Below, in pieces: positions 3,440-37,238 of a stretch of DNA of 64,000 nucleotides. The translations under genes and the position numbers were made by a program. The DNA lies in assembly GCA_965116495.1 (NCBI GenBank), contig OZ220696.1, positions 320,001-384,000 of the forward strand, written 5' to 3'. How positions within the stretch are numbered: position 1 is the first letter of the stretch; each line of letters begins with the position of its first letter. The notes beneath the pieces are model-generated. The model was not told where the DNA came from, did not search any database, and saw only the letters and a list, made by a program, of their open reading frames with translations. The stretch is from Gammaproteobacteria bacterium (GTDB taxonomy: Bacteria; Pseudomonadota; Gammaproteobacteria; Eutrophobiales; Eutrophobiaceae).

Positions 3440-4765
3440 TTACCTGAAACGCGGGTCCTGATCAGGACTCCAGGGCTGCTTCAGCAGTTTGTCCGGATCC
3501 CCGTATTTCGCGGCGATGGCGCGAATTTCCGGATCATCAAGCGCCGTCAGGTGGCCGCGGTCGATAATCAGCTCTCCATCCACCGTCAACGTCGGCCGGT
3601 AGATCACGAAGTCCTTGTGGTGTACGGGATAACCGTGCTTGTTGGTAAATTCCGCAGTAAATCCGCCCGCCGTCATGCCGACGGCAATGTGGAACACACC
3701 CGCTTTCAGGTCGATGTTGTAGGTCCACCATTTGCCGGACCAGGCCATATCCGGGATGTCCGGCAGGGGTTCATAGCCTGGAACAGGGTAAAAGCCCCAG
3801 ACCGCGTATTCCACCCAGTCAACCCCGGGGCCGGGGTAGTGCGGGTACTGGACGTCCTGGTACTTCTCGAATGCGGTGCGTAAATGATCACCCATACTGC
3901 CGCCGCCTGTTACCTTGGCGACCCTGCCTTTATCTATGTGCAGTTCAATGGTGGGAATCCTGCCGGAGTGCAGGTGGTCGGATACGAACACGCCCCGCAT
4001 GTCCGGGTTGTCGCTCAGGTGAATACGCGGAGAATGGTTGTTGACGATATCACCCCATAACTCGTTGTAGCGGCTCCACATCTGCTCATCCAGCGTCCAC
4101 TTCAGGTCGGTGCCATTGGGATCCGTCAGGTGGAAGTTTTTGCCGTTGCGCATGGTGTCATAACCCTTGCGGATCAGCGCCCAGACAAGCTCATCGGGGT
4201 AATCCCTGTTGGCGGCAAGCCGCTGGCGCTGCTGGTGCGTATTCCACAGCATGTGAAACACGGTGTCGGTGTCGTGGGCCCATTTGTTTTTCCAGCCGAC
4301 GCCGGGAACGTTGACGGCCGGCATCAGGTTGACCGGGTTGATAAAAGACAGTGGCAGTACCCGGTCATAACCCGCGGCGGCGTCCCAGACCCATTGCGGC
4401 CACGGGTTTTTCTCGAAGATTTCAAGGACGAGTTCGGTGGGGTCTGTTACGTCCAGGCGGCCTTGCAGCATAATCGTGTCCACCTGGCCGGCGCCGAGGC
4501 GCCATGCAGCGACATAGAAAGCCTCGGCAGTTAACGGGTCTACGGAACGGTCGCTTACTATCAGGACCTTTTCACCGGGTTGCATACCCGGTACGTATCC
4601 CGGGCGGCTGAGATTGTCCATCGCTGCGGGAACAATGTCCTCCAGGGTAATATCTTCCGGAGCGGGATAGGGATACAACGGCGGTTCGTTTGCCGGCGCC
4701 TGTTGCATGAACAAAATAAGGATAATCGGGGAGAGCAATTGTTTCATGGAGGTCAGAATATTCAT
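3440..4765 (-). CDS. Secreted hypothetical protein, probable M29 aminopeptidase/NicX-like metalloenzyme fold
   Basis: 441 aa; hydrophobic N-terminus, PGEKVLIVSD motif and C-terminal FHIAVG...HHKDFVIYRPTLTVDGELIIDRG resembling the M29/NicX family. Confidence 0.5.
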   Translation of the reverse strand: MNILTSMKQLLSPIILILFMQQAPANEPPLYPYPAPEDITLEDIVPAAMDNLSRPGYVPGMQPGEKVLIVSDRSVDPLTAEAFYVAAWRLGAGQVDTIMLQGRLDVTDPTELVLEIFEKNPWPQWVWDAAAGYDRVLPLSFINPVNLMPAVNVPGVGWKNKWAHDTDTVFHMLWNTHQQRQRLAANRDYPDELVWALIRKGYDTMRNGKNFHLTDPNGTDLKWTLDEQMWSRYNELWGDIVNNHSPRIHLSDNPDMRGVFVSDHLHSGRIPTIELHIDKGRVAKVTGGGSMGDHLRTAFEKYQDVQYPHYPGPGVDWVEYAVWGFYPVPGYEPLPDIPDMAWSGKWWTYNIDLKAGVFHIAVGMTAGGFTAEFTNKHGYPVHHKDFVIYRPTLTVDGELIIDRGHLTALDDPEIRAIAAKYGDPDKLLKQPWSPDQDPRFR

Positions 4766-4837
4766 AAATCCGGGATAAAATTAAACAAAAAGCTATCTTT
4801 AACTCACTATTCAACCTATGTATTATAGACTGTTATT

Positions 4838-5074
4838 ATGATTTTCCAATGTCCCCGATGTGCTGCAGACGGTGACCGCTGCCGGGAGGACTACAAGGGA
4901 ATGGACGGCGACACCGTTGCCTGGACCGTATTTCACTGCATGGATTGTTCGTTCACGTGGCGTGATTGTGAACCTGAAACCGTGGTAATACATGAGATGC
5001 GCCGGTCATGGGCAAACCTTACCAACCTGGGTCCGGAAGCCTACCCGCACAACATCCCGCCGCCGCAGGGGTAA
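4838..5074 (+). CDS. Non-oxidative hydroxyarylic acid decarboxylase subunit D (BsdD/VdcD-like zinc ribbon)
   Basis: 78 aa; CPRC...WTVFHCMDCSFTWR and terminal IPPP are typical of the D subunit; a UbiD gene lies downstream on the same strand. Confidence 0.8.
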   Translation: MIFQCPRCAADGDRCREDYKGMDGDTVAWTVFHCMDCSFTWRDCEPETVVIHEMRRSWANLTNLGPEAYPHNIPPPQG

Positions 5075-5079
5075 TATCG

Positions 5080-7170
5080 ATGCATTACAAAATAGGGGTT
5101 GATACGGGGGGGACCTTCACGGATGCGGTTATCCTGGATGAAGCAGGCAACATCACAACCGGCAAACACCTTACTACCTATCACGATTTTTCCGCAGGCG
5201 TCGGTAACTCATTGGCTGTTGCAGCGGAAAAATTATCGATCAGCCTGGAACAGTTACTGGGCAACTGCGTTGCGTTCGCCTACGGCACCACGATCGGCAC
5301 CAACGCCATTGCGACGCGCAGCGGGGCAAAAGTCGGCATGTTAACCACGAAAGGCGCCCGGGATACCATCCATATAGCACGGGGGTTATCACGCTGGACC
5401 GGTTTGTCGGAAGCCGAAACCAAACACATGGCGACAACCATCAAGCCGGCGCCGCTTGTTCCAAAAAAGTTGACCAGGGAGATTCGCGAACGGGTGGATT
5501 ATTCCGGTAGCGAAGTGGTGCCGCTGAATGAAAACGACGTGTGTACGGCCGTGGCGGAGCTTGTCGAGCAGGGCGCAGAGAGTATAGCCGTTTGCTTCCT
5601 GTGGTCGTTTACGAACAGCGGACACGAATTGAGGGCAAAGGAAATCGTACAGGAACTGTACCCGGACCTGTATAGCTGTACTTCCTGTGAAGTGGTGCCG
5701 CTGGAAGGTGAATACGAGCGTTTCATCACCACGGTGCTGGATGCTTACGTGGGGCCGGCTACCCTGAGTTATATGAAATCCGTATCCGGATTTCTCAGGG
5801 AAAAGGGGTTGAAACCGAGACTGCTGCTGATGAAAGCCGATGGCGGTATCGCGTATTCAGACTCCGTGCTGCCGGTTGCCACGGTCCACTCCGGGCCTGC
5901 AGGTGGAGTAAAAGCAACCCGTACATTCGGCCGGATCCTGGGATATGACAATATCATCTCGACTGACGTAGGCGGCACGACTTTTGACGTAAGTCTGGTT
6001 ACTAATGGAAAGGAAACCTTCAACCGGGAACCGCGTATCGAAAAATTCAGCACCCTGTATCCGACGCTGGACATCGTATCCATCGGCGCGGGCGGGGGCA
6101 CCATCGTCCACGCCGACCCGGAACTGAAGACGCTGCACGTGGGTCCGCAAAGCGCGGGCTCCAATCCGGGTCCGGCCTGTTACGGGTTTGGCGGGGAACA
6201 GCCTACAATGACCGATGCCGCGGTGACCCTGGGCTATATCAATCCGGAATACTTCAACGGCGGACGTATGGCGCTGCAACCTGAACGTTCCCGGGAGGCG
6301 TTCAACAGGGTGGCTGCTATCCTGGAAATGGATGTGGTGGAAGTGGCCCAGGGCGCTTACGAGATCATCAATTCGCACATGTCGGACCTGATCATGGGCA
6401 TGACGGTGCGCCGCGGTGTGGATATCAGCAACTATGTGATCTTCAGTTTCGGCGGTGCAGGTCCCGTGCACGTGGCCTACATGGGCGCGACGCTGGGCGC
6501 CCGTAAGGCAATCATTCCTGCCTCATCATCAGTCTACTCGGCCCTGGGGCTGGCTACATCCCCTATAGGACATACATATATCAAGTATGACTATCGCACT
6601 TTACCGATAACTGCGCAGGTATTGAACGACAATATCGGCGAGTTGCAGCAACGGGTGAAACGGGAACTGGCCGAAGGTGGCGTGCCCTCCGGCGGTATGG
6701 ATATCCAGGTGTCACTGGATATGAAATACCTGTTGCAGATCAATACGGTCAATATGACGATCCCGTTAAAGGATACCTATACGGAAGATGATGCGGCGCA
6801 ACTGGGTGACTTGTTCGATCAGGCATATACTGATCTTTACGGCGCAGCCGCTGCGTATCCCGAGGCCGGGCGCGTGGTTTCCTCCTATATGATAAAGGGG
6901 GAGGGCATAGTCCACGATTTTGCCCCGAGTCCGGCGCCCCTGGCAGGCAATGATGCGGGTGCGGGGAACAAGGGAAGCAGGCAGGCTTATTTCAAAGGCG
7001 ATGGTTTCCTGGAAACGCCCCTGTTTGATTTTACGAAACTGCTGCCCGGTAATGAAGTAAGTGGGCCGGCGATCATTGAGGCCGATGAGACCACGATCGT
7101 GGTGCCGCCGGGCTACTCCGCTGCACTGGACGGATTTAAAAATATCGAACTTGTAAGTACGGAAGGGTGA
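5080..7170 (+). CDS. Hydantoinase/oxoprolinase subunit A (ATP-binding)
   Basis: IGVDTGGTFTD, SGPAGG, DVGGTTFD, IGAGGG and GPACYG motifs; start placed at ATG 5080 (MHYKIGVD). Confidence 0.92.
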   Translation: MHYKIGVDTGGTFTDAVILDEAGNITTGKHLTTYHDFSAGVGNSLAVAAEKLSISLEQLLGNCVAFAYGTTIGTNAIATRSGAKVGMLTTKGARDTIHIARGLSRWTGLSEAETKHMATTIKPAPLVPKKLTREIRERVDYSGSEVVPLNENDVCTAVAELVEQGAESIAVCFLWSFTNSGHELRAKEIVQELYPDLYSCTSCEVVPLEGEYERFITTVLDAYVGPATLSYMKSVSGFLREKGLKPRLLLMKADGGIAYSDSVLPVATVHSGPAGGVKATRTFGRILGYDNIISTDVGGTTFDVSLVTNGKETFNREPRIEKFSTLYPTLDIVSIGAGGGTIVHADPELKTLHVGPQSAGSNPGPACYGFGGEQPTMTDAAVTLGYINPEYFNGGRMALQPERSREAFNRVAAILEMDVVEVAQGAYEIINSHMSDLIMGMTVRRGVDISNYVIFSFGGAGPVHVAYMGATLGARKAIIPASSSVYSALGLATSPIGHTYIKYDYRTLPITAQVLNDNIGELQQRVKRELAEGGVPSGGMDIQVSLDMKYLLQINTVNMTIPLKDTYTEDDAAQLGDLFDQAYTDLYGAAAAYPEAGRVVSSYMIKGEGIVHDFAPSPAPLAGNDAGAGNKGSRQAYFKGDGFLETPLFDFTKLLPGNEVSGPAIIEADETTIVVPPGYSAALDGFKNIELVSTEG

Positions 7171-7174
7171 CAAT

Positions 7175-9352
7175 ATGAGCACAAAGCTGGACCCGGTAAC
7201 TTTCGAAATACTCCGTCACCGCCTGGAAGAAATCGTCAATGAAGCCTACTACACCATGGCGCGCGTCTCCGGCAATGCAATCATAACGGAGGCCGGCGAC
7301 CATGAAGAGGCCATCCTGAATGCAAACGGAGATACCATCATGGTCGGTGGCGGCATTGTTGAATGGACCCAGTGTCTGGAGGAAGCGGGGCGCTATATCT
7401 CCAGGGAGTACCAGGACAACCCGGGTATCTTTGAGGGTGACCAGTTTGTATTGAACTGCACCGAAGTGGCGGCGGTACACCTGATGGATATCCAGGTGTT
7501 GAAGCCGGTATTCTGGGAAGGCGAACGGTTTGCCTGGTTAAACACGGCCGGGCACAACATGGACGTGGGCGGCATCAATATCGGAGGTGTCCAGATTGAT
7601 GCCCGTGAACGCGTGCAGGAAGGGTTGAGCATGTGGGGTCTCAAGGTCTGCGAACGGGGGGTTATCCGCAAGGATATTGAGACGACCATAAAGAACATGA
7701 CGCGCCAGCCGGAACTGCTGGTACTGGAATTGCGGGCGCGCATGGCCGCCAATAATGCCGCGGAGAAACGCCTGCTGGATACCGTCAGGGAGTTCGGCTT
7801 CGACAAGGTGATGGCGATCTTCGAGGAATTGCCCAGGTACTCGGAGCAACGTATTCGCCAGAGGCTGGCAAAGCTGCCGGATGGTGAGTTCTCGGCCGTT
7901 CACTATTTCGAATCGGTTATCGAGAGTGAAGGCGCCCTGGCAGTCAAATGTAACCTGGTGAAAAAAGGTGATACCCTGAAGATGGATTTCACCGGGTCGT
8001 CACCACAATCCAAAGGGGCCCAGAACGTGGCGTTACCCGGCGCCAAGAGCAATGCCGAATGCCCCTTCCTCATGATGCTGGCCCACGATATTCCGTGGAA
8101 TTACGGTTTGTGGGGGGTGATTGAGTGGGTGCTGCCCCATGGCAGTATCGTCAACCCCACTGATGACGCACCGGTTTCCATCAATACGCCTGCGGGCGCC
8201 GGCTATGTCACCATCGGTTGTGTGCTGGATTGCATCAGCCAGCTCTACCTGTGTTCGGATGAAATGGAAGAGGCAATGGCCTGCGGCAGTAATGCCTTTA
8301 ATAACCCGATGCTCTACGGCAATGACAAGGAAGGCAATTATTTCATCACGATGATGATGGAAAACCTCATCTGCGGCGGCGGCGGCATGTACCATCGCGA
8401 CGGTGATGACGCCTGTTCCAACATGTGGACGACCAAGCCGCAGGTCACCAACCTGGAACGCGCCGAGCAGCTGTTTCCCTGGTTGTACCTGTGGCGCAGG
8501 GAGGCAATGGATACCGGCGGACCCGGAAAGAACCGGGGCGGTACAGCCTGTATGAACGCTTTCATTCCATGGAAAGTTGATGAGATGGAAGTCCATGACA
8601 ACGGTATGGGCGATACTGTGCGACTCGCCAACGGCCTGGCCGGGGGGTATCCCGCGCCCAACGTGAAACAATATCTCATCAGAAAATCCAACATACAGTC
8701 CCTGTTTGACCGGGGCGAGATGCCCTCTGCCGTGGATGAAGTTGAGGGAACGGTTGAGGAATACGGTGTCAACACAACGCTTCCTTTCTACAAGGACGAT
8801 GTCTACGCGGTTTACTTCGGGGGTGGTGGAGGCTTTGGCGACCCGCTGGAACGCAATCCCGAAAATCTCGTTAAAGACGTGATAAACGAACATGTATCGG
8901 TAGATGAAGCCAGGAAGTTATACGGGGTTATCATTGATAAGGAGATGCTGCAGGTGGACCGGGCGGCTACTGACAGTGAACGGGAAACCATGCGCAAAAA
9001 GCGCCTGGGTCTGGCGCAGGCGCCGAAACTGACCAACGGTAAAGCTGTAGATAGCGGCACTGAACTGATGAACTGGGCGGGGGTGATTTCCCTGAACGTG
9101 GACGCTACGGGTGACCGTTACTGGCAATGCAGGAAATGCGATCATATTCTGGGTGACGCCGGCGCCGACTGGAAGGACTACGCGGCGACCTATCACGCCC
9201 CGATGGAGCACGGCCAACCCGAGGCGTTTGCAACGGTTACCGAAGACTATCACCTGCGCGAATGTTACTGCCCGAATTGCGGCGGATTATTCGAGGTGTT
9301 GAACCTCGGTGTAAATGATGAGGACGTAGTGACATTCAAGTACCTCGACTGA
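7175..9352 (+). CDS. Hydantoinase B/oxoprolinase subunit fused to a C-terminal acetone carboxylase gamma-like Zn domain
   Basis: LDPVTFEIL start, HLMD and HNMDVGG metal motifs, GGGGFGDPLER; extra C-terminal CRKCDH...LRECYCPNCG. Confidence 0.85.
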   Translation: MSTKLDPVTFEILRHRLEEIVNEAYYTMARVSGNAIITEAGDHEEAILNANGDTIMVGGGIVEWTQCLEEAGRYISREYQDNPGIFEGDQFVLNCTEVAAVHLMDIQVLKPVFWEGERFAWLNTAGHNMDVGGINIGGVQIDARERVQEGLSMWGLKVCERGVIRKDIETTIKNMTRQPELLVLELRARMAANNAAEKRLLDTVREFGFDKVMAIFEELPRYSEQRIRQRLAKLPDGEFSAVHYFESVIESEGALAVKCNLVKKGDTLKMDFTGSSPQSKGAQNVALPGAKSNAECPFLMMLAHDIPWNYGLWGVIEWVLPHGSIVNPTDDAPVSINTPAGAGYVTIGCVLDCISQLYLCSDEMEEAMACGSNAFNNPMLYGNDKEGNYFITMMMENLICGGGGMYHRDGDDACSNMWTTKPQVTNLERAEQLFPWLYLWRREAMDTGGPGKNRGGTACMNAFIPWKVDEMEVHDNGMGDTVRLANGLAGGYPAPNVKQYLIRKSNIQSLFDRGEMPSAVDEVEGTVEEYGVNTTLPFYKDDVYAVYFGGGGGFGDPLERNPENLVKDVINEHVSVDEARKLYGVIIDKEMLQVDRAATDSERETMRKKRLGLAQAPKLTNGKAVDSGTELMNWAGVISLNVDATGDRYWQCRKCDHILGDAGADWKDYAATYHAPMEHGQPEAFATVTEDYHLRECYCPNCGGLFEVLNLGVNDEDVVTFKYLD

Positions 9353-9413
9353 CCAGGGTCAATGCCGTGCTTTGCCTGCCGCGCACCCCATCCGTCATTC
9401 TAGCTCTTCCTCT

Positions 9414-9441
9414 CGTCATTCCTGCGCAAGCAGGAATCCAG
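9414..9441. repeat. REP-like palindrome (GTCATTCC...GGAATCC type)
   Basis: cgtcattcctgcgcaagcaggaatccag in the intergenic gap before the UbiD gene; a partial copy (cgtcattc) lies just upstream. Confidence 0.6.
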
Positions 9442-9467
9442 TGCCCAGACAGGCGCACCCCCCCGCA

Positions 9468-10946
9468 ATGACATACAAACGCGAGCCGACCCTGACTCCG
9501 GAAGCAATCGCCATCGGTCAACGAATCAAGGGGTTGCGGGACTTCCTCGAGTTACTGGACGAACACGGCCAACTGGCGCGTTGGGAAGAGGAAGTCCTGC
9601 CTGAACCGGACATCCGCAATATCTCCGTGGCCGCGGGCCGCGACGCCATGTACGGGCCGGCGGTGCTGCTCACCAACATCAAGGGCTACCCCGGCAAACA
9701 GGTCGTGGTGGGGGTACACGGCAGTTTCACCAACCTGGCCCTGCTGATGGGTCGTGCCAAGGGTACCTCGGTGAAGGAACTGTTCTACGAAATGGTGAAC
9801 CGCTGGGGCAGTGATGAACCGTTAATCGAGCGGGTACCCCCGACACAGGCGCCGGTGCACACCAACCGGGTTGAGGGGAATATCAATTTGTACGAACTGC
9901 TACCCCTGTACCGTATCAACGAGTATGACGGGGGTTTCTATATCGACAAGGCCAACGTGGTGAGCCGGGACCCGTCGGACCCGGACGACTTCGGTAAACA
10001 GAACGTGGGGATCTACCGCATCCAGGTGCATGGACCGGACCTGTTCAGCCTGGATGCCGTGCCGTCTCACGACATGGGGCAACACATTCGTATTGCCGAG
10101 CGGGAGGGTGCCGACCTGAACATCGCGGCTATGATCGGCAACCATCCTGCCCTGGCGATGTTTGCGGGGACGCCGGTGAACTACGATGAATCGGAGTATG
10201 CGTATGCCTCGCAGATGATGGGTGCGCCGCTGCGGTTGACTACATCCGGCAACGGCCTTGATATCCTGGCCGGCTCGGAGATGGTCATCGAGGCGACGAT
10301 GGTCAACAAGGAGCGTATTCTTGAGGGGCCGTTTGGTGAGTTCCCCGGCACTTACAGCGGTGTGCGCCGTTTGAACGTGTTCCGGGTGACGGCCGTTTCT
10401 TTCCGGGATAATCCCATCTACGAGAGTTTGTACATCGGCAGCAAGAGCTGGACGGAGCACGACACGCTGCTGGGCGTCAACGTATGTGCGACGGTATATA
10501 ACCAGTTGAAACAGAATTTCCCTGAAATCGTCGCCGTTAATGCCTTGTACCAGGACGGGACGACTGCTGTCATCGCGGTGAAGAACCGCTTTGCCGGCTT
10601 TGCCAAATCCGTGGCCCTGCGGGCACTGGGTTCACCTCACGGGCTGATGTTCCTGAAGAACCTCATCATGGTGGATGCCGACATCGACCCGTTTGACCTG
10701 AACCAGGTCATGTGGTCGCTGTCGAACCGCACCCGGGCCGATGACGTTATCGTGTTGCCGAACATGCCGCTCAGCGATGCGGACCCGTCGGCGGAGGTCG
10801 GCGGCAAAGGCCACCGGCTGATTATCGACGCCACCTCCTACATGCCGCCCGATACAATCTCCGTGAACAACAACCTGGTGGAATCACCGGCCGGCCCGGT
10901 TATCGATGAACTGGAAAGGATGATTAATGAGTTGCGAAAAAAGTAA
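9468..10946 (+). CDS. UbiD-family (prFMN-dependent) decarboxylase, hydroxyarylic acid decarboxylase subunit C-like
   Basis: LRDFLELL, RINEYDGGFY, QNVGIYRIQV, EGPFGEFPG and VDADIDPFDLNQVMWSL motifs; start placed at ATG 9468 because the longer ORF start runs through the REP. Confidence 0.92.
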   Translation: MTYKREPTLTPEAIAIGQRIKGLRDFLELLDEHGQLARWEEEVLPEPDIRNISVAAGRDAMYGPAVLLTNIKGYPGKQVVVGVHGSFTNLALLMGRAKGTSVKELFYEMVNRWGSDEPLIERVPPTQAPVHTNRVEGNINLYELLPLYRINEYDGGFYIDKANVVSRDPSDPDDFGKQNVGIYRIQVHGPDLFSLDAVPSHDMGQHIRIAEREGADLNIAAMIGNHPALAMFAGTPVNYDESEYAYASQMMGAPLRLTTSGNGLDILAGSEMVIEATMVNKERILEGPFGEFPGTYSGVRRLNVFRVTAVSFRDNPIYESLYIGSKSWTEHDTLLGVNVCATVYNQLKQNFPEIVAVNALYQDGTTAVIAVKNRFAGFAKSVALRALGSPHGLMFLKNLIMVDADIDPFDLNQVMWSLSNRTRADDVIVLPNMPLSDADPSAEVGGKGHRLIIDATSYMPPDTISVNNNLVESPAGPVIDELERMINELRKK

Positions 10947-11936: not shown

Positions 11937-12782
11937 TTATTTCAGTTGGGGCCAGATGACCCATCCGGAAGCGGAACGCCAGGCGTAACTGTCGCAATAA
12001 CCCAGTACGTCGGCGGGTCCCCTGGTTGAGGCGAGCACCACGAACCAGGCGATAAGCTCTGCCGTGCCGCCCGAACCGGCTTCTTCCATGCGCTCCAGCG
12101 TGCATTTCTCCATTAACTTGCGGTGGTCGCCCTCGGCGAGACAATCCAGGAACATGCGGTCGAATTCTTCATCGATATAGAAATAGCGAGGCCCGCCCGG
12201 CTCATGGGACAGGCCGCCGGAACCGATCAATGCGATGCGTTCATCCCCCGGATAACTGTTGAGCACGTCGCGGATGATGTGTCCCACCTGGTAGGCCCGC
12301 TCCGGCGTCGGGATAGGGGGCACGGTACAGTTCATGGTAATGGGGATGATCGGAATACTCATATCAGGGTTGAGATACTTGGTCGGCGTGGATATCCCGT
12401 CGTCAAACTGCATGTCTTCCTGGATGTAGGCCAGTTGTAAACCGTGCCTGGCCGCTTCGTTCACGATGTAACGGGCCAGTTTTGAGTTACCCGGCACATG
12501 GTATTTTTCATCCTGCGCCAACCAGGGTTGGTACCAGTCGGCCGGGCCGCTGTGGTGCCCGGCGATACCGACCGTGTATTCGGGGGTGTTGCTCAGCGGC
12601 CAGTTGAGCAGGTGATCGTTGGCGAAAATGATCAATACATCGGGTTTAGCCGCGTTGAGGTGCTCGCGCATTTTTTTGAATGAATCCAGCGCGGTCTGTT
12701 GCTGATGTTCCGGTGCATCGTCAAACCAGCCCAGCAGACCCGGTGTGTGGGTCGAGGCTACTGCGGCAACGATCTCAGCCAT
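11937..12782 (-). CDS. Class III extradiol ring-cleavage dioxygenase, LigB-type beta subunit
   Basis: STHTPG, NDH, SGGLSHEPGG and GTAE motifs, matching the LigB Fe ligand and catalytic His pattern. Confidence 0.9.
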   Translation of the reverse strand: MAEIVAAVASTHTPGLLGWFDDAPEHQQQTALDSFKKMREHLNAAKPDVLIIFANDHLLNWPLSNTPEYTVGIAGHHSGPADWYQPWLAQDEKYHVPGNSKLARYIVNEAARHGLQLAYIQEDMQFDDGISTPTKYLNPDMSIPIIPITMNCTVPPIPTPERAYQVGHIIRDVLNSYPGDERIALIGSGGLSHEPGGPRYFYIDEEFDRMFLDCLAEGDHRKLMEKCTLERMEEAGSGGTAELIAWFVVLASTRGPADVLGYCDSYAWRSASGWVIWPQLK

Positions 12783-13131
12783 CGCCCTTGTCCTGCATCA
12801 TGTCCCACTTGGAATCACCAAGGGACTCTTTTGATTCCTTCGGGAAGGCCTTCTGGTAGATGGCGACGGCCGGGTGGGCATTGGTCATGTTGCCGACCCC
12901 GTAGGTGAGGCGCATGATGTGCGGAACCAGGTACTGGTGTACGCCCAGGTCCATTAACCGTTTCGGATCGGTATCCCGCAGCGCCTCGTATTCTTCCCGG
13001 CTGCAACCGAATTCCCTGGTCAGACTCTCCAGGTCTTCCAGCCAGCGTTTTTGCAGGGCCGGGTCCTTGCGCACGTAATAGATCATATCGTTAGTGGGCA
13101 GGGTTTTGTCGACTCGAAGAACGTTGCTCAT
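12775..13131 (-). CDS. LigA-like small (alpha) subunit of the extradiol dioxygenase
   Basis: 118 aa from ATG 13131; SREEYEAL...DPKRLMDLGVHQYL resembles LigA; overlaps the LigB start. Confidence 0.7.
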   Translation of the reverse strand: MSNVLRVDKTLPTNDMIYYVRKDPALQKRWLEDLESLTREFGCSREEYEALRDTDPKRLMDLGVHQYLVPHIMRLTYGVGNMTNAHPAVAIYQKAFPKESKESLGDSKWDMMQDKGDG

Positions 13132-23499: not shown

Positions 23500-25527
23500 A
23501 TGATGCGAATTGCAGTTGACGTGGGAGGCACCTTTACCGATGTTGTGGTATTGGATGAACAATCCGGTGTCCTCCGTTTCGATAAAGTTGAAACAGTCCC
23601 CAGTGACCCTGGCGCCGGTGTCATCAATGGTATCGTGAAGGCCGGAATTGATTGTAACAGTGTAGACATTTTTGTGCACGGTACTACTCTGGGGCTCAAT
23701 GCCTTGCTCACCCGCACCGGCGCCGATCTCGCCATTATTACGACGAAGGGATTTCGCGACGTTTACCTGCTGGGACGTACCGACCGGGATCCGCTGTATG
23801 ACCTGAGATACCGCAAACCCGATTCCCTGGTACCACGTCATCGAATATTTGAAGTGACGGAACGGATGAATTACAAGGGGGAAGTTCTGCTGGAACTGGG
23901 ACGGGAAGAGGCGGTTGCCCTGGGTGAAATGTTAAAGCAGCGGGGTGTCCGCTCCGTAGCCGTTTGCCTGTTACATTCCTACATCAATCCTGCCCATGAA
24001 CTGGCACTGGCAGACGTGCTTGCGGATGTATACCCGGAACTATCCATCACGCTGTCGCACAGGTTGACTCGTGAGTATCGTGAGTATGAACGTACCAGTA
24101 CGGCCGTTATCGATGCCTATATCAAACCATTGACACGGACTTACCTGGAAAAACTGGATGCAGAACTGAACGAGCGCGGTTTTAAAGGTTCTTTTCTTCT
24201 GACTCGATCCGGCGGTGGCGCGATAACCGTTGACGCAGCCAAGGATGAGCCGGCGCATCTGATTCTATCCGGTCCGGCAGGTGGCGTAATCGGGGCGACG
24301 GCATTCGGCGCGCTCATCAATGAGCCGAACCTTGTTACCATCGATATGGGTGGTACCAGCCTTGACGCCTCATTGATCGTTGCCGGCGAACCCAACGTGG
24401 AAACACAACAACGGTTTGAGGGACTGCCGATCGCGATTCCTACACTGGATATCCATACCATCGGCGCCGGTGGCGGCAGTATTGCCTGGGTAGACGACGG
24501 GGGGCACCTGCAAGTGGGTCCGCAAAGCGCCGGTGCCGTACCGGGTCCTGCCTGTTATGCCAAGGGAGGAAAGGATGCGACCTATACCGATGCCGCATTA
24601 GTGATGGGTTACCTGGATGCGAATAATTTCCTTGGTGGCGAAATGGCGCTGAATAAGGATCTCGCTCACCGGGCCGTTTCGGGAACGGCCGAAGCCGTGA
24701 AACTTTCCGTGGAAGAGACTGCGGCCGGGATCATGCGTATCAGTGATGCGAAGATTGCCGGCGCAGTCAGGGTTATATCGATTGAACGGGGACATCATCC
24801 GAAAGATTTTGCGTTGCTCGCTTTTGGGGGCGGTGGAGCGTTCGTTGCAACCAGTGTCGCCCGCGAACTGGGTATTCCCAGGGTCGTGATTCCTCCCGTT
24901 CCAGCGACTTTTTCAGCGTTGGGCATGATGATGGTGGATGTTACCCACGATTTATCACAGACCTGCGTTATGGACCTGGAACAGCTTGAAGTAGAGTCAA
25001 TCAACGGTATTTTTGCTGAATTGAGCAGCAGAGGGCATGATGCCCTGGAAAAAGACCAGATAGACCCTGCACGCAGGCGCCTTATTCCCATGGCGGAGTT
25101 GCGTTATCAGGGGCAGGAGCACACGGTCAACCTGGTGTTTCCCACAGTCGAACTGGGTCCCGGGGATAAGGAGAAAATAGAGTTGTTGTTCAATGCTGCC
25201 CATGAAAAACAATATAGACATTCCATGGGAGATCCTATCCAGATTGTGACCTTGCGCTTGCGCGCAGTGGGCCTGCTTGGACGCCCCAACCTGCCGAAAC
25301 CGGATATGGACACAGCGGCGCCGTCAAGCAATAACAGCAGAAATATTTACCGTTCCGAGACCGGTGCCAGGGAACCTTATGTCATATATGACAGGGAAGT
25401 TCTCAGGGCGGGTATGCAAATCCGAGGGCCGGCTATCATAGAAGAACCCACTTCGACTTCTGTGATACACAAGGGTGATAATTTGATTGTGGGTTCATAC
25501 GGTGAACTCCAGGTCAGTATCGGTTAG
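23500..25527 (+). CDS. Hydantoinase/oxoprolinase subunit A
   Basis: VDVGGTFTD, HGTT, REYERTST, SGPAGG and DMGGTS motifs. Confidence 0.93.
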   Translation: MMRIAVDVGGTFTDVVVLDEQSGVLRFDKVETVPSDPGAGVINGIVKAGIDCNSVDIFVHGTTLGLNALLTRTGADLAIITTKGFRDVYLLGRTDRDPLYDLRYRKPDSLVPRHRIFEVTERMNYKGEVLLELGREEAVALGEMLKQRGVRSVAVCLLHSYINPAHELALADVLADVYPELSITLSHRLTREYREYERTSTAVIDAYIKPLTRTYLEKLDAELNERGFKGSFLLTRSGGGAITVDAAKDEPAHLILSGPAGGVIGATAFGALINEPNLVTIDMGGTSLDASLIVAGEPNVETQQRFEGLPIAIPTLDIHTIGAGGGSIAWVDDGGHLQVGPQSAGAVPGPACYAKGGKDATYTDAALVMGYLDANNFLGGEMALNKDLAHRAVSGTAEAVKLSVEETAAGIMRISDAKIAGAVRVISIERGHHPKDFALLAFGGGGAFVATSVARELGIPRVVIPPVPATFSALGMMMVDVTHDLSQTCVMDLEQLEVESINGIFAELSSRGHDALEKDQIDPARRRLIPMAELRYQGQEHTVNLVFPTVELGPGDKEKIELLFNAAHEKQYRHSMGDPIQIVTLRLRAVGLLGRPNLPKPDMDTAAPSSNNSRNIYRSETGAREPYVIYDREVLRAGMQIRGPAIIEEPTSTSVIHKGDNLIVGSYGELQVSIG

Positions 25528-25570
25528 ACTGTGGCAAACAGATATATAAAAGAGGTATGAGATCAGAAAG

Positions 25571-27295
25571 ATGGCTACTGTCGACTCCATTACGGTAGAG
25601 GTAATACATAACTATCTGTTATCGGCGGCGCGGGAGATGAACCGGAATCTCATGCGCACCGCCTACAGCACCTTGATATACGAGGTACACGATTTTGGTC
25701 TCGGTCTCTATGACAGGGAGTGCCGACTGCTGGCCGAGGCGCCGGGACTGGCCGTTTTTACCCGCAGCAATGATTACGGGCTGAACAAGATGGTCGAATT
25801 TCTCGGTTATGACAATATTCATCCCGGTGACGTAATCCTGCTCAATTACCCTTACTGGAGTTCAACCCATACCCTGGACGTGATGGCGGCGTCCCCCATC
25901 TTTCATAAAGACGAACTCGTAGGTTTTACCGCCGTGAAAGAACACTGGCTCGACCTGGGACAGAAAGACCCCGGCTATTGTCTGGACACCCTTGAACTTG
26001 CCCAGGAAGGGCTGGTTTTCCCCTGCTCAAAGATCTACTCACGCGGAGAACTGAACAAGGAGCTGGAAACGCTTATTCGATTTAACAGCCGCATGCCGGA
26101 CCGGGTCATCGGCGACATGAATGCGCAAATTTCCGCCTGCCGCACCGGCGAGCGGCGTGTACAGGAACTGGTGGAAAAGTTTGGTGTTGAAACCTACAGG
26201 TCGGCCATCAAGGAGATGCTGGACCACGGTGAACGTCTTGCGCGTAAGCGCCTGGCGGAGTTGCCGGACGGCACCTGGACCGCGGAAGACTATGTCGATG
26301 ATGACGGTGTTGTGCGCGACCAAAAGATGCGCCTGCAGGCCACGGTAACCATTGCCGGTGATGAAATGACCATAGACTGGACCGGATCCGATGATAAATG
26401 TAAAGGCCCTATGAATGTGCCCATAGGCACGACCGAAGGAGTGTGTGCGCTGGTCTTCAAGTCAATCACCACCCCGGATACACCTGCTAATGAAGGCAAT
26501 TTTCGGCCGTTAACAGTAATTGCTCCGGAAGGCTGCATCATGAACGCACAACCGCCGTCACCGACTTTTACCCTGTGGACGGCGCTGATTGCGCCCGAGG
26601 TAGTGACCAAGGCCCTGGCCCAGGGGATGCCCGACAGCATCCCGGCGTGCAGCGGCGGAGATATTTTCTCCCTGATGGGAATTGGCACCCATCCCGATAC
26701 CGGCAAGCTGTGGATTGAAAGCACCAATGAAGGCATCGGATTTGGCGGGCATTCCGCCGATGATGGCGAGAGCGGCATTATGCACATGACCGAACCCGGT
26801 TGCCGTAACAACCCGGTTGAGGTTCTGGAGACCAAGGCGCCCTGGCTGATAGAAAACTACAGCCTGCGGGCCGATTCGGGGGGAGCCGGTAAACACCGGG
26901 GAGGGCTGGGCATTACCCGCACCTATCGTTTTCTCTCGGACGCGTCCGCATTGACCCTGGTTAAAAAAACCAAGACTTCGCCATGGGGTATGGCTGACGG
27001 GGAGGACGGGCAGGCGGGGGCGGTTATCGTGCGGCCCGGCACTGAGCGGGAACTGGTAACCGGCGCCATATACGAGGAGATGTCGGCGGGTGATGTTATC
27101 ATCAACCAGTCCGGCGGCGGCGGCGGGTGGGGCAACCCCCTGGAGCGTGATCCGGAGCAGGTGCTTGACGATGTCAGGAACGAATTTGTATCGGTTGTTG
27201 CCGCGCGGGAGAAATATGGTGTAATAGTCAATGCTGAGACCATGACGATTGACGGCGTGGCTACTGTTGACTTGCGAACATCAATGTCAACTTGA
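25571..27295 (+). CDS. Hydantoinase B/oxoprolinase subunit
   Basis: HTLD, HWLDLG, NSRMP, DSGGAGKHRGG and GGGGWGNP motifs. Confidence 0.93.
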   Translation: MATVDSITVEVIHNYLLSAAREMNRNLMRTAYSTLIYEVHDFGLGLYDRECRLLAEAPGLAVFTRSNDYGLNKMVEFLGYDNIHPGDVILLNYPYWSSTHTLDVMAASPIFHKDELVGFTAVKEHWLDLGQKDPGYCLDTLELAQEGLVFPCSKIYSRGELNKELETLIRFNSRMPDRVIGDMNAQISACRTGERRVQELVEKFGVETYRSAIKEMLDHGERLARKRLAELPDGTWTAEDYVDDDGVVRDQKMRLQATVTIAGDEMTIDWTGSDDKCKGPMNVPIGTTEGVCALVFKSITTPDTPANEGNFRPLTVIAPEGCIMNAQPPSPTFTLWTALIAPEVVTKALAQGMPDSIPACSGGDIFSLMGIGTHPDTGKLWIESTNEGIGFGGHSADDGESGIMHMTEPGCRNNPVEVLETKAPWLIENYSLRADSGGAGKHRGGLGITRTYRFLSDASALTLVKKTKTSPWGMADGEDGQAGAVIVRPGTERELVTGAIYEEMSAGDVIINQSGGGGGWGNPLERDPEQVLDDVRNEFVSVVAAREKYGVIVNAETMTIDGVATVDLRTSMST

Positions 27296-27321
27296 TATAA
27301 CGAAGGCAGGGGAGAAGCTGA

Positions 27322-29361
27322 TTGAGCAGCCGTATCGGTGTTGATATAGGGGGTACTTTTACCGATCTCATTTTTTTCAATGAGGACGATGGTTCCGTAC
27401 TGGTGGACAAAGTGCCCACCACCCCATCGGCACCGGAAATCGGTTGTGTGGATGCCATAAATTCGGCTGTTGCGCCTGAATTACTCCGATCGTCCTCCTA
27501 CTTCCTCCATGGCACGACAGTTGGGCTGAATGCCTTGCTCGAACGCAAGGGTTCGGTAGTGGGTCTGTTAACCACCAGCGGTTTCCGTGATGTACTGGAA
27601 ATCCGCAAGGGTTCCAGGGAAGAATGGTATAACGTATTCTGGGTTCCCGATGCGCCTCTGGTGCCGCGCAGACACCGGCTTGAAATCAGGGAGAGGGTGC
27701 TGGCCAGTGGTGAAGTGCTGGAACCATTGCTTGAAGCAGATGTCATAAATGCCGTGAATGTATTTCAGGATCAAGGGGTTACCGCCATAGCAGTGGCTTT
27801 CCTGAATGCTTACATGAACCCTGACCATGAGATAGTAGCCGAGCAGCTTATCCACGCTGCAGGATTCACCGGGGCCGTTTCTCTCTCCCACCGCGTGTCG
27901 GGTGAGTACCGTGACTATGAACGAACTTCCACTACCGTGATTGACGCTTATGTGCGCGGGCGCTTGTCAAACTACATGGACCACATCGAATCCAGGCTGC
28001 GCGCGGACGGGTTTGGCGGCACGTGCCTGATCACCCGATCGGGCAGCGGTTCCATGACATTCACCGAAGCGGCAGAACGCCCCTTTGAAACCATAATGTC
28101 AGGACCTGTTGCCGGGGTTGAAGGCGCAGCCGGATTGGCGCGCAACCTGGGTCTGGGTGACATCATCTCTGCCGACGTGGGCGGCACCAGTTTTGATACG
28201 GCCTTGATTCGGGACGGCCGTCCGCAGTTGCTTTATGAAGGTTCGGTGTTAGGCATGCCGTTACAGACACCCTGGGTAGATGTGCGTTCCATCGGCGCAG
28301 GCGGTGGCTCCATTGCTTATGTTGACGTAGGAGGCCTGCTGCAGGTCGGTCCGCAGAGCGCAGGCGCGGAACCCGGCCCCGCCTGCTATGGCCGCGGCGG
28401 TACACATGCCACGGTGACGGATGCCGCATTTTACCTGGGCATGCTGGCGTCAGGGGTCCTTGCTTCCGGTATCAGGCTGGATCGCGGCGAGTCGGAAGCG
28501 GCGCTGAAACCTCTGGCCGACAGGCTCGGCTATGACCTGACACAGACGGCGGAAGGAATCATAACCATCGCAGTGGCCGCCATGGCCAATGCCATACGCG
28601 AGATTACCGTGGAGCAGGGTTTCGACCCCAGGGAGATGAAGTTACTGCCGTTTGGCGGCGCGGGGCCCATGCTTGCAACCGAGTTGGCGCGGGAACTGGA
28701 CATGCGCGAGATCATCATTCCGCCTTGCGCCGGAAACTTTTCCGCGCTGGGATTGCTGACATCCGACCTGTTGCAAAGCGCCGCCCTGACACGGCCCATG
28801 CCGCTCAATGATGAATCGCTAAGCCAGGCAAACGATATACTCGAAGGCCTGTTCAAGGATTTGAAATCCAGGGGGGCGGCCAGTGTAAACGGAACAACGA
28901 CACAACTGGAAGTTGCCCTGGATCTGCGTTATACCGGGCAGGAACATACCATCAACGTTCAACCTGACGCCGATGACGGAATGATTACGGCTGCGGCGGA
29001 TGACGTGCAAAACCGGTTTGAGGCTGCATACCACGAAGCATATGGTGGCATACTCGATACGCTTATTGATATTGTCTCCATCCGGGCCTCAGTGCGCCGG
29101 CCTTTATCCGGCTCGATAAATTTCACCGGGACCGGGAGCATTTCGACCGGTGGTTCTACCGATGCTGTGCGGGCTTACAGCTTCATCCGCGGGGAATACT
29201 CGAAATTTACCGTCATGGAGCGGAGTCAACTGTGCGCCGCTGAGCAGCGTGAGGGTCCCGCCATTATCATCGAACCCACCACAACTACCTATGTCGATGC
29301 AGATTGCCGGTATACTATTGATCCCGGTGGTTGTTTACGAATTAATATCGAGGATACCTGA
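27322..29361 (+). CDS. Hydantoinase/oxoprolinase subunit A
   Basis: GVDIGGTFTD, SGPVAG and DVGGTSFD motifs; TTG start. Confidence 0.93.
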   Translation: MSSRIGVDIGGTFTDLIFFNEDDGSVLVDKVPTTPSAPEIGCVDAINSAVAPELLRSSSYFLHGTTVGLNALLERKGSVVGLLTTSGFRDVLEIRKGSREEWYNVFWVPDAPLVPRRHRLEIRERVLASGEVLEPLLEADVINAVNVFQDQGVTAIAVAFLNAYMNPDHEIVAEQLIHAAGFTGAVSLSHRVSGEYRDYERTSTTVIDAYVRGRLSNYMDHIESRLRADGFGGTCLITRSGSGSMTFTEAAERPFETIMSGPVAGVEGAAGLARNLGLGDIISADVGGTSFDTALIRDGRPQLLYEGSVLGMPLQTPWVDVRSIGAGGGSIAYVDVGGLLQVGPQSAGAEPGPACYGRGGTHATVTDAAFYLGMLASGVLASGIRLDRGESEAALKPLADRLGYDLTQTAEGIITIAVAAMANAIREITVEQGFDPREMKLLPFGGAGPMLATELARELDMREIIIPPCAGNFSALGLLTSDLLQSAALTRPMPLNDESLSQANDILEGLFKDLKSRGAASVNGTTTQLEVALDLRYTGQEHTINVQPDADDGMITAAADDVQNRFEAAYHEAYGGILDTLIDIVSIRASVRRPLSGSINFTGTGSISTGGSTDAVRAYSFIRGEYSKFTVMERSQLCAAEQREGPAIIIEPTTTTYVDADCRYTIDPGGCLRINIEDT

Positions 29362-29363
29362 TC

Positions 29364-31088: not shown

Positions 31089-31151
31089 TATATAGAAATT
31101 TATTAAAATAATTCTATACCTACATAAATAACATCCATGAAGGGGGACAGT

Positions 31152-33293: not shown

Positions 33294-33326
33294 TTGTGCC
33301 TGACTTTTACCGGCGCTTAACCGACA

Positions 33327-33351
33327 GGGGACAGAATTCAATTCTGTCCCT
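33327..33351. repeat. REP-like palindrome
   Basis: ggggacagaatt-c-aattctgtccct. Confidence 0.75.
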
Positions 33352-33372
33352 TGTTACTGTACCCTGTTAACT

Positions 33373-35409: not shown

Positions 35410-35419
35410 CGGGAGCGCT

Positions 35420-35444
35420 GGGGACGGATTTCAAATCCGTCCCC
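35420..35444. repeat. REP-like palindrome
   Basis: ggggacggattt-c-aaatccgtcccc, flanked by 11-bp direct repeats cgtaacgggag (35405-35415, 35472-35482). Confidence 0.8.
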
Positions 35445-35488
35445 TGACAACTTTTAATCCGCGCATTGACGCGTAACGGGAGATAGTA

Positions 35489-37228: not shown

Positions 37229-37238
37229 GAGACGATAC

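What the first reader, a model, noticed from the sequence alone, without database searches (positions are those of the whole stretch)
4838..10946. Candidate new pathway: an ATP-dependent hydantoinase/carboxylase pair nested between the D and C subunits of a UbiD decarboxylase
Seen: same-strand order of subunit D (4838), hydantoinase A (5 bp later), hydantoinase B::gamma fusion (4 bp later), then UbiD. Known: BsdBCD/VdcBCD are normally contiguous B-C-D, and acetone and acetophenone carboxylases are built from hydantoinase A/B-like subunits plus a small Zn subunit. No UbiX (B subunit) occurs in the 64 kb. Inference: a coupled ATP-dependent carboxylation or ring-opening step and a prFMN (de)carboxylation step on one (hetero)aromatic substrate, an architecture I do not recognise.
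Basis: partly seen in the sequence, partly recalled or inferred. Interest (0 to 1): 0.78.

Follow-up and report, generated by a model that had tools for sequence, protein, structure and literature searches.

The report
ATP-driven ring opener plus retuned decarboxylase
Four genes on one strand encode an ATP-using enzyme of the hydantoinase/acetone-carboxylase family and a flavin-dependent aromatic decarboxylase whose phenol-binding residues are replaced by acidic ones; the pairing recurs in three bacterial lineages and likely marks an undescribed route that breaks down a nitrogen-containing aromatic compound.

Summary
The four genes and spacings are as reported. The 'missing' UbiX lies 8.5 kb upstream, just outside the window, and the B::gamma fusion is common. 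The conserved link is HyuA-HyuB::gamma to a subclade of VdcC-like UbiD; the position of D varies. The link holds in 9 of 23 same-genus genomes (the same 9 for both genes), a Steroidobacteraceae contig and genome G385. The UbiD keeps its catalytic triad but carries extra Asp residues in the pocket. In this genus every Hyu-linked copy examined (8 of 8) has replaced the phenolate-binding His349/Tyr381 by Asp/Phe, even against a 96%-identical paralogue that keeps them. Neither enzyme falls in a characterised clade (Hyu B 23-24% identical to Apc, Acx, CapB). A LigAB dioxygenase and a formamidase flank the operon. Best reading (0.5): ATP-dependent opening of an aromatic lactam or amide, decarboxylation that makes it irreversible, then ring cleavage and amide hydrolysis. 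Substrate, direction and co-transcription are not shown. I found no paper and no earlier scan note on this pairing. New variant of known parts; interest 0.58.

The parts
4838..5074 (+). VdcD-type Zn-ribbon activator subunit (78 aa)
   Evidence: NF041205 46.4 bits, cut-off 30; CPRC and CMDC knuckles; R42/E45 match the ShVdcD interface residues R36/E39 by spacing from the second knuckle
5080..7170 (+). HyuA-type ATP-binding subunit (696 aa)
   Evidence: PF05378/PF01968/PF19278; DTGGTFTD, DVGGTT, GSNPGP and RERVDYSG motifs intact; best PDB hit Apc 5L9W_B, 410 bits; nearest full-length 50%-cluster representative 45% identical
7175..9352 (+). HyuB-type metal subunit fused to an acetone-carboxylase-gamma-like Cys4 domain (725 aa)
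   Evidence: PF02538 + PF08882; D42/H102/D105/H127 tetrad, CRKC and CPNC; model pLDDT 94.8 matches Apc, Acx, NMHase and CapB chains at 23-24% identity, and the Acx/Apc gamma chains weakly
9468..10946 (+). VdcC-like prFMN (de)carboxylase with altered pocket (492 aa from ATG 9468; the open frame starts at TTG 9372)
   Evidence: VdcC 622 bits, under the 650 cut-off; 44% identical to ShVdcC, TM 0.86; R184/E286/E291 kept; D196, H331, D363, F395, S436, D437, A438 at ShVdcC Q180, I317, H349, Y381, M423, P424, L425
10983..11927 (-). Acetamidase/formamidase-family amidase; likely lower pathway
   Evidence: PF03069; co-oriented downstream of the UbiD in G007 and G008
11937..12782 (-). LigB-type extradiol dioxygenase beta subunit of an uncharacterised clade (FDDG in place of LDHG); likely lower pathway
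   Evidence: PF02900; under every NCBIfam cut-off; alignment to gallate dioxygenase; motif counts
12775..13131 (-). LigA-type small subunit (118 aa from the start shared with relatives)
   Evidence: PF07746; 96-97% identical in four same-genus loci
3440..4765 (-). Divergent gene, distant NicX/peptidase-M29-like; probably a passenger
   Evidence: No Pfam or NCBIfam hit; Atlas neighbours carry PF26233 NicX (35% and 76% of members) at scores 0.90-0.91; seen beside D only in G000, L012 and L059

Best explanation
The operon likely encodes two consecutive steps in the breakdown of a nitrogen-containing aromatic compound: HyuA/HyuB::gamma would spend ATP to open a stable lactam or amide whose carbonyl sits on the ring, and the D-activated UbiD would then remove the freed carboxyl group as CO2. 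Shown: gene order, intact ATP and metal motifs, intact UbiD triad, the altered pocket, co-inheritance, and a UbiX in the same island. Inferred: phosphorylation of the lactam oxygen in HyuA and metal-assisted C-N cleavage in HyuB, by analogy with CapAB and oxoprolinase. Inferred: the product is a hydroxy- or amino-aromatic acid bearing an amine or ring N-H, held by D196, D363 and D437. Inferred: decarboxylation stops the amino acid from re-closing to the lactam, which would explain why the two genes stay together. Inferred and weaker: Rieske O/N-demethylase-like genes act upstream, and LigAB plus the formamidase act downstream and release the nitrogen. Candidate classes are hydroxylated isoquinolinones, isoindolinones, quinazolinones, pyridone carboxamides and amino- or hydroxy-benzamides; no single substrate is identified.
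For: Co-inheritance: HyuB::gamma orthologues (80% or more) and D196-type UbiDs (87% or more) occur in the same 9 of 23 same-genus genomes. HyuA-HyuB::gamma-UbiD is contiguous in L053 at 74/74/74%. G385 has the same order with three genes inserted, at 76/71/62%. In family f204, 2 of 2 genomes with the Hyu orthologue have a D196-type UbiD and 0 of 3 without it do (5 of 7 genomes tested). All 11 Hyu-linked UbiDs fall in one 24-row subclade (SH-aLRT 90, quick tree), and both trees place L053 nearer this genus than G385. Specificity shift: 8 of 8 Hyu/LigAB-linked copies in the genus have D363/F395, 6 of 6 Rieske-linked copies that cover these positions have H/Y, and 18 of 18 canonical C-D copies have L/H/Y. 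The window gene and its paralogue L010 are 92-99% identical in DNA over codons 38-337 but 86-90% over codons 338-397, where these residues lie. H349 and Y381 are proposed to position the substrate and support phenolate formation (PMC8379154, passage). [quoted passage not shown] I saw no CoA ligase, CoA transferase or thiolase in the G000 ORFs scanned around the operon.
Against: No substrate or activity is shown, and pocket roles are read from a sequence alignment to ShVdcC, not from a ligand model. The gene order and gamma domain are those of acetone carboxylase; gamma is described as absent from hydantoinases (PMC5214803) and as specific to Apc and Acx (PMC13677872). In G427 the Hyu orthologue is flanked by an unrelated UbiD (25%) and its D196-type UbiD lies on another 4.6-kb contig; that UbiD and its HyuB group differently in the two trees. 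The Hyu-linked UbiDs outside the genus keep H349/Y381, so the D/F change is lineage-specific. The Corynebacterium Hyu pair is only 34/28% identical to the window pair and 55/52% to another pair of G000. LigAB-FmdA occurs without this Hyu pair in G003 and G428 and its clade is far wider, so it need not belong to this route. Kin are not independent, and shared presence on one island explains part of the 9-of-9 match.
Confidence: 0.5

Rival explanations
1. Shared island, separate jobs: HyuAB and the UbiD act on related but different compounds and are neighbours because this lineage packs dozens of catabolic genes into mobile islands.
For: 23 HyuB and 10 UbiD genes in one genome. A 96%-identical UbiD copy lives without Hyu. 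G427 pairs the same Hyu with another UbiD clade. An integrated element splits hyuA from hyuB in G022 and an extra ORF plus an MFS gene follow hyuB in G008. The HyuB-UbiD gap is 115 bp with no clear ribosome-binding site.
Against: Same order and matched divergence in L053 and G385; one UbiD subclade; the D363/F395 change tracks Hyu linkage in 8 of 8 copies despite apparent gene conversion. Control families are rarely near HyuB in G000: 0 of 17 Rieske, 0 of 12 sulfatase, 9 of 89 TonB receptors, against 3 of 10 UbiD.
Confidence: 0.22
2. Aryl-ketone route: HyuA/HyuB::gamma is an acetone-carboxylase-like enzyme that carboxylates a hydroxyacetophenone-type ketone; the aroylacetate is shortened elsewhere to a hydroxybenzoate, which the UbiD/D pair decarboxylates.
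For: A-B-gamma order as in acxABC (PMC5214803); best sequence and structure hits are Apc subunits; VanA/DdmC-like Rieske genes travel with the UbiD subclade; NadCD, apparently the 65%-identical pNL1 protein, decarboxylates protocatechuate.
Against: Only 23-24% identity to Apc and Acx; no second ATPase subunit or epsilon; Asp42 where Acx has the gating Glu89; no CoA-activating gene seen in the ORFs scanned; loss of H349/Y381 and gain of Asp residues is not expected for a plain hydroxybenzoate.
Confidence: 0.15
3. ATP-driven ring carboxylation: the Acx-like enzyme phosphorylates bicarbonate and/or a phenol, pyridone or arylamine, and the UbiD runs in the carboxylating direction, a non-homologous counterpart of phenylphosphate or phenylphosphoamidate synthase plus carboxylase.
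For: Acx-type architecture, which activates both an enol and bicarbonate (PMC5214803); kinase-plus-UbiD precedents for phenol and aniline (PMC7500099, passages); a HyuB homologue at 65% is labelled Clostridia bacterium, so the chemistry need not use O2.
Against: An acidic pocket suits a cationic or N-H substrate rather than an aryl phosphate (inference); the UbiD scores 110 and 85 bits on the phenylphosphate carboxylase models against cut-offs of 469 and 565; the neighbours are O2-dependent oxygenases.
Confidence: 0.1

Closest known systems
VdcBCD/ShdBCD/BsdBCD hydroxyarylic acid decarboxylases (ShVdcCD, PDB 7AE4/7AE5/7AE7) and NadBCD of Novosphingobium aromaticivorans
   Same: UbiD fold (TM 0.86, 44% to ShVdcC; 65% to the pNL1 VdcC), E-R-E triad, Zn-ribbon D with conserved interface residues, UbiX in the same island
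   Different: D precedes C and is 4.4 kb away; no B-C-D block; H349D, Y381F, Q180D, P424D, M423S, L425A; under the VdcC cut-off while the genome's own canonical C-D paralogue passes it at 657.6 bits
Acetone carboxylase AcxABC (Xanthobacter autotrophicus, PDB 5M45/5SVB/5SVC)
   Same: One ATPase subunit, one metal subunit and a Cys4 gamma, in the order A-B-gamma
   Different: 23% identity; gamma fused and short; Asp in place of Glu89; no acetoacetate-processing neighbour seen
Acetophenone carboxylase ApcABCDE (Aromatoleum aromaticum, PDB 5L9W)
   Same: Best PDB hit for both large subunits; Asp-His-Asp-His metal site
   Different: No second ATPase subunit and no epsilon in the operon; NCBIfam scores 427 and 217 against cut-offs of 1500
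ATP-dependent lactamases: caprolactamase CapAB (6YRA), N-methylhydantoinase (9H03), oxoprolinase, IaaCE
   Same: ATP motifs and metal tetrad; two catalytic subunits
   Different: Fused gamma domain; 24% identity; E63-W64 in place of the family His; NCBIfam scores 482 and 188 against 1000; I found no report of one paired with a UbiD
Phenylphosphate and phenylphosphoamidate synthase/carboxylase (Thauera aromatica, Desulfatiglans anilini)
   Same: An ATP-using enzyme beside UbiD-family subunits on one aromatic substrate
   Different: There the kinase is PEP-synthase-like and two UbiD subunits are needed; here it is hydantoinase-like and the UbiD is VdcC-like

Membership tests
VdcBCD/BsdBCD decarboxylase | C subunit with UbiD fold and E-R-E catalytic triad | tested here: met
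   R184/E286/E291; Foldseek top hit 7AE4, TM 0.86
VdcBCD/BsdBCD decarboxylase | NCBIfam VdcC curated cut-off (650 bits) | tested here: not met
   622.4 bits; canonical paralogue 657.6
VdcBCD/BsdBCD decarboxylase | D subunit: two CxxC knuckles, C-D interface residues | tested here: met
   NF041205 over cut-off; D R42/E45 and C E46/R149 kept; Sh D173 aligns to G189
VdcBCD/BsdBCD decarboxylase | Contiguous B-C-D gene order | tested here: not met
   Order is D-HyuA-HyuB-C; UbiX 8.5 kb upstream on the other strand; canonical order in PMC13527026
VdcBCD/BsdBCD decarboxylase | Phenolate-positioning His349 and Tyr381 | tested here: not met
   Asp363 and Phe395
VdcBCD/BsdBCD decarboxylase | Decarboxylates 4-hydroxybenzoate, vanillate or protocatechuate | not testable with these tools
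   Needs an assay
Acetone carboxylase Acx | A-B-gamma architecture with a Cys4 gamma | tested here: met
   PF08882 27.5 bits over cut-off 21; CRKC/CPNC
Acetone carboxylase Acx | Orthology to Acx subunits; Glu89 gate | tested here: not met
   23% structural-alignment identity; Asp42
Acetone carboxylase Acx | Ketone-dependent ATP to AMP turnover with bicarbonate fixation | not testable with these tools
   Needs an assay
Acetophenone carboxylase Apc | Two ATPase subunits plus epsilon (four or five genes) | tested here: not met
   One HyuA in the operon in every locus read
ATP-dependent hydantoinase/lactamase (CapAB, HyuAB, OplA) | ATP motifs and Asp-His-Asp-His metal site | tested here: met
   against PMC8453981 passages
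ATP-dependent hydantoinase/lactamase (CapAB, HyuAB, OplA) | Two-subunit enzyme without gamma; CapA/CapB cut-offs | tested here: not met
   Gamma fused; 481.5 and 188 bits against 1000
ATP-dependent hydantoinase/lactamase (CapAB, HyuAB, OplA) | ATP-dependent C-N hydrolysis of a cyclic amide | not testable with these tools
   Needs an assay
Phenylphosphate synthase/carboxylase | PEP-synthase-like kinase and Ppc alpha/beta UbiD subunits | tested here: not met
   No such kinase among the four genes; TIGR02724 110.5 against 469, TIGR02723 84.6 against 565

The most novel reading that the evidence does not exclude
The Acx-like enzyme and the retuned UbiD form one ATP-driven machine for the C-C step on an aromatic ring: ATP activates bicarbonate and/or an N-containing arene and the UbiD fixes CO2 on it, a new way of pulling a UbiD uphill that does not use the PEP-synthase-type kinase of the phenol and aniline routes.
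Probability: 0.1. Interest if true: 0.85.

Novelty: new variant of a known kind. Interest (0 to 1): 0.58.

Why it matters
Most hydantoinase/oxoprolinase-family enzymes have no known substrate, and sequence alone does not separate carboxylases from lactamases (PMC5214803). A conserved partner with a well-understood active site gives a handle on one such clade. The genus also offers a natural pair of 96%-identical UbiDs that differ at the two phenolate-binding residues, a ready test of how UbiD specificity moves from phenolic to N-bearing acids. If the best reading holds, it adds an ATP-lactamase plus prFMN-decarboxylase strategy for N-aromatic breakdown. If the carboxylation reading holds, it bears on the standing problem of driving UbiD carboxylation, which matters for CO2-fixing biocatalysis.

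Tried and rejected
Complex prediction of HyuB(209-725) with UbiD(15-490): no verdict (runs 0.47, 0.00, 0.00; mark 0.32); counted neither for nor against binding. D with UbiD was not folded. RNA: one metatranscriptome run held a small share of the stretch (0.06); 46 short contigs were laid, none of the 8 listed pieces bridges two genes and 38 were not shown, so co-transcription is untested. Promoter scan: 4 sites against 7.0 expected; one on the + strand at 4799-4826, not significant. Wider sampling for the HyuB orthologue: 1 of 399 other genomes scored in the class, 0 of 400 in the phylum, 3 metagenome loci, two of them too short downstream. A general UbiD-HyuAB link: four plasmid homologues of the G427-type UbiD had no hydantoinase genes within 7 kb (0 of 4), so I reject a family-wide rule. 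My recollection that lumichrome catabolism pairs an ATP hydantoinase with a UbiD was wrong: the paper has no occurrence of 'ATP' or 'UbiD' and uses a thiamin-dependent decarboxylase (PMC12746152, passages). PydA-like identity of the LigB was not supported: the extradiol dioxygenases of Leucaena- and Desmanthus-derived rhizobial plasmids are 29% identical, and their being PydA is my recall. The skatole cluster SktIJ (bioRxiv 10.1101/2024.12.29.630347, passages) has no UbiD mention. The careful UbiD tree did not finish; both trees are quick trees without bootstrap, without a one-clade test and without characterised Acx, Apc or Cap sequences, which I could not obtain as rows; the UbiD tree used 66 chosen rows of the larger alignment and the HyuB tree 14 of the 22 other G000 paralogues. 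The contig look-up by protein identity was closed, so neighbourhoods of P0002, P0005, P0006, P0008-P0012 are unknown. Literature searches without a description of this pairing: (0 papers); subscription journals are largely outside that library and no supplements were read.


Full report
Observation. D spans 4838-5074, HyuA starts 5 bp later at 5080 and ends at 7170, HyuB::gamma starts 4 bp later and spans 7175-9352, and the UbiD ends at 10946 with a likely ATG at 9468. Family scans give VdcD over its cut-off, the three hydantoinase A domains, hydantoinase B plus acetone carboxylase gamma, and a VdcC-like UbiD at 622 bits against a cut-off of 650. The genome (4.34 Mb, one contig) has one UbiX, 8.5 kb upstream of D and just outside the window, so its absence is an edge effect. 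The genome also holds 10 UbiD and 23 HyuB genes. Adjacency here is therefore weak evidence by itself: 3 of 10 UbiD genes lie within 6 kb of a HyuB, and 279 of 10,000 circular shifts do as well; controls were 0 of 17 Rieske, 0 of 12 sulfatase and 9 of 89 TonB receptor genes.

Conservation. D-HyuA-HyuB::gamma-UbiD recurs in L012, L014, L015 and L018, and in G022 with an integrated element between hyuA and hyuB. Among 23 same-genus genomes, 9 carry the HyuB::gamma orthologue and the same 9 carry the matching UbiD type; kin are not independent and the genes share an island. Outside the genus, a contig whose HyuB a source labels Steroidobacteraceae has HyuA-HyuB::gamma-UbiD contiguous at 74/74/74% with no D in 18 kb. 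G385, of another family, has HyuA (76%), HyuB::gamma (71%), three inserted genes, the UbiD (62%) and a DdmC-like Rieske gene on one strand, with a second D 6.5 kb upstream on the other strand. Four contig lengths (19,883; 332,752; 672,190; 4,585,804) are shared between HyuB and UbiD cluster members of the G385-like lineage, an indirect sign of the same linkage that I could not check in DNA. Against this, G427 has the Hyu orthologue beside an unrelated UbiD and keeps its matching UbiD on a separate short contig; two further metagenome loci end too soon. The module is rare: 1 of 399 other class genomes, 0 of 400 phylum genomes, 2 of 7 in family f204. So the old link is Hyu to UbiD; D between or beside them is local. 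In G020 the order is UbiD', two Rieske genes, D, HyuA, HyuB::gamma, UbiD, which reads as a duplicated C sharing one D.

The decarboxylase. It is 44% identical to ShVdcC with TM 0.86 and 65% to the pNL1 protein that appears to be NadC, a protocatechuate decarboxylase (the locus-tag match is my inference). The E-R-E triad is kept. H349 and Y381, proposed to position the substrate and support phenolate formation (PMC8379154, passages and section 8), are Asp363 and Phe395, and Q180 and P424 are Asp196 and Asp437. Three types exist in the genus. Type I (L196, H, Y) always has D directly downstream (18 of 18) and, where read, sits with a cresol-hydroxylase-like flavoprotein and cytochrome. Type II (D196, H, Y) lies beside VanA/DdmC- and NdmA-like Rieske genes (6 of 6). 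Type III (D196, D363, F395) follows HyuB::gamma or precedes LigAB-formamidase (8 of 8). The window's type III gene and the type II copy at C1:1933-1934 kb are 96% identical and group together, with DNA identity of 92-99% over codons 38-337 but 86-90% over codons 338-397: apparent gene conversion that spares the specificity residues. The Hyu-linked UbiDs of L053 and G385 are type II. All 11 Hyu-linked rows fall in one 24-row subclade (SH-aLRT 90, quick tree), and L053 is nearer this genus than G385 in both the UbiD and HyuB trees, while G427 is incongruent. D keeps both knuckles and the interface Arg/Glu; G000 and G385 each have two D genes, G003 and G016, which lack the module, have one.

The ATP-dependent pair. 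HyuA has intact phosphate and adenosine motifs and HyuB the D42/H102/D105/H127 tetrad (residues defined in PMC8453981, passages). The model (pLDDT 94.8) matches Apc, Acx, N-methylhydantoinase and CapB about equally at 23-24% identity, and NCBIfam scores are far under the Apc and Cap cut-offs. The A-B-gamma layout is formally that of acetone carboxylase (PMC5214803, parts 2-3 of 5; PMC13677872, passages), but the same paper says sequence cannot assign function in these branches, and the Cys4 tail occurs in 38 of 119 homologues across all identity bands. The orthologues share a distinct pocket motif, GGGIVEW, with Glu-Trp where the solved relatives have His. I saw no CoA ligase, CoA transferase or thiolase among the ORFs scanned in G000, G385, G427 and L053; not every ORF was scanned.

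The flanking genes. LigA, LigB and an acetamidase/formamidase converge on the UbiD here and are co-oriented directly behind it in G007 and G008. The LigB has FDDG where gallate dioxygenase has LDHG (87 of 120 homologues match that pattern, the rest were not inspected). Its best plasmid homologue lies in a Corynebacterium operon of HyuA, HyuB, LigB, LigA and formamidase, and the next beside an isochorismatase-family hydrolase, which points to an amide-containing cleavage product. However, that Hyu pair is closer to another G000 pair (55/52%) than to the window's (34/28%), LigAB-FmdA occurs without the module in G003 and G428, and the clade is much wider. It is best read as a shared lower pathway for N-containing rings, present in 8 of the 9 module genomes.

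Mechanism. The best-supported reading is catabolic. HyuA/HyuB::gamma would use ATP to open a lactam or amide whose carbonyl is on an aromatic ring. The UbiD, activated by D and supplied with prFMN by the nearby UbiX, would remove that carboxyl group, with the added Asp residues holding an amine or ring N-H. Loss of CO2 would prevent re-closure, a chemical reason for the linkage (inference). Demethylation upstream and LigAB/formamidase downstream are weaker inferences. I give this 0.5, island juxtaposition 0.22, an aryl-ketone carboxylation route 0.15 and ATP-driven ring carboxylation 0.1. Co-transcription, substrate and direction are not shown.

Novelty. Each part belongs to a known family, but none passes the membership test for a characterised system. 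Seven literature searches and five look-ups in the scan's own notes returned no description of a hydantoinase-family pair linked to a VdcC-type UbiD; the scan's notes cover the canonical cresol-hydroxylase-linked VdcCD cluster and a HyuB::gamma fusion on other DNA. I rate it a new variant of a known kind, interest 0.58.

Noticed in passing
window 23500-38978: Three further HyuA/HyuB sets in the same window (23500-27295, 27322-31088, 33373-38978, the last with two HyuB genes in tandem), none with a gamma domain by Pfam; the genome has 23 HyuB genes.
   Followed up: partly
L061:5934-12540 (G000:C1:1165933-1172539): A second, unrelated UbiD-HyuA-HyuB-FAD oxidoreductase run on one strand; its UbiD is 28% identical to the window's and resembles the UbiD beside the Hyu pair in G427.
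   Followed up: partly
L062:6367-15464 (G000:C1:2044-2053 kb): A UbiD converging on a HyuA/HyuB pair that is 55/52% identical to the pair in the Corynebacterium HyuAB-LigBA-formamidase operon; that HyuB has a match at E 1e-150 or better in 15 of 23 genus genomes.
   Followed up: partly
L117:4111-10179 (NZ_CP014329.1): IclR-HyuA-HyuB-LigB-LigA-acetamidase/formamidase operon on a Corynebacterium plasmid, LigB and LigA annotated as hypothetical; looks like an uncharacterised N-heterocycle pathway in a culturable host.
   Followed up: partly
L010 (G000:C1:1930843-1934439): A 96%-identical UbiD paralogue without D, beside NdmA-like and DdmC-like Rieske genes; apparent gene conversion with the window copy.
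   Followed up: yes
L132:3025-8316 (G000:C1:299-304 kb): Canonical C-D pair with a TAT-type FAD oxidase, cytochrome c and a second FAD-binding protein, the cresol-hydroxylase-linked cluster found in most genus members.
   Followed up: partly
L059:5523-13604 (G022): An 8.5-kb integrase- and relaxase-like element (read by eye) inserted exactly between hyuA and hyuB.
   Followed up: no
L023:8001-10707 (G020): A type II UbiD copy interrupted by a transposase-like ORF.
   Followed up: no
window 3440-4765: Divergent 441-aa gene with a hydrophobic N-terminus and distant NicX/M29 likeness; a NicX-like gene (by eye) also lies near the Hyu pair in G427, 23% identical.
   Followed up: partly
window 9390-9445: A short GC-rich palindromic, REP-like element (recalled resemblance) in the gap between hyuB and the UbiD gene.
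   Followed up: no
L124:10156-12684 (G003) and L118:10479-13035 (G428): Cupin-LigA-LigB-formamidase operon without the Hyu pair.
   Followed up: partly
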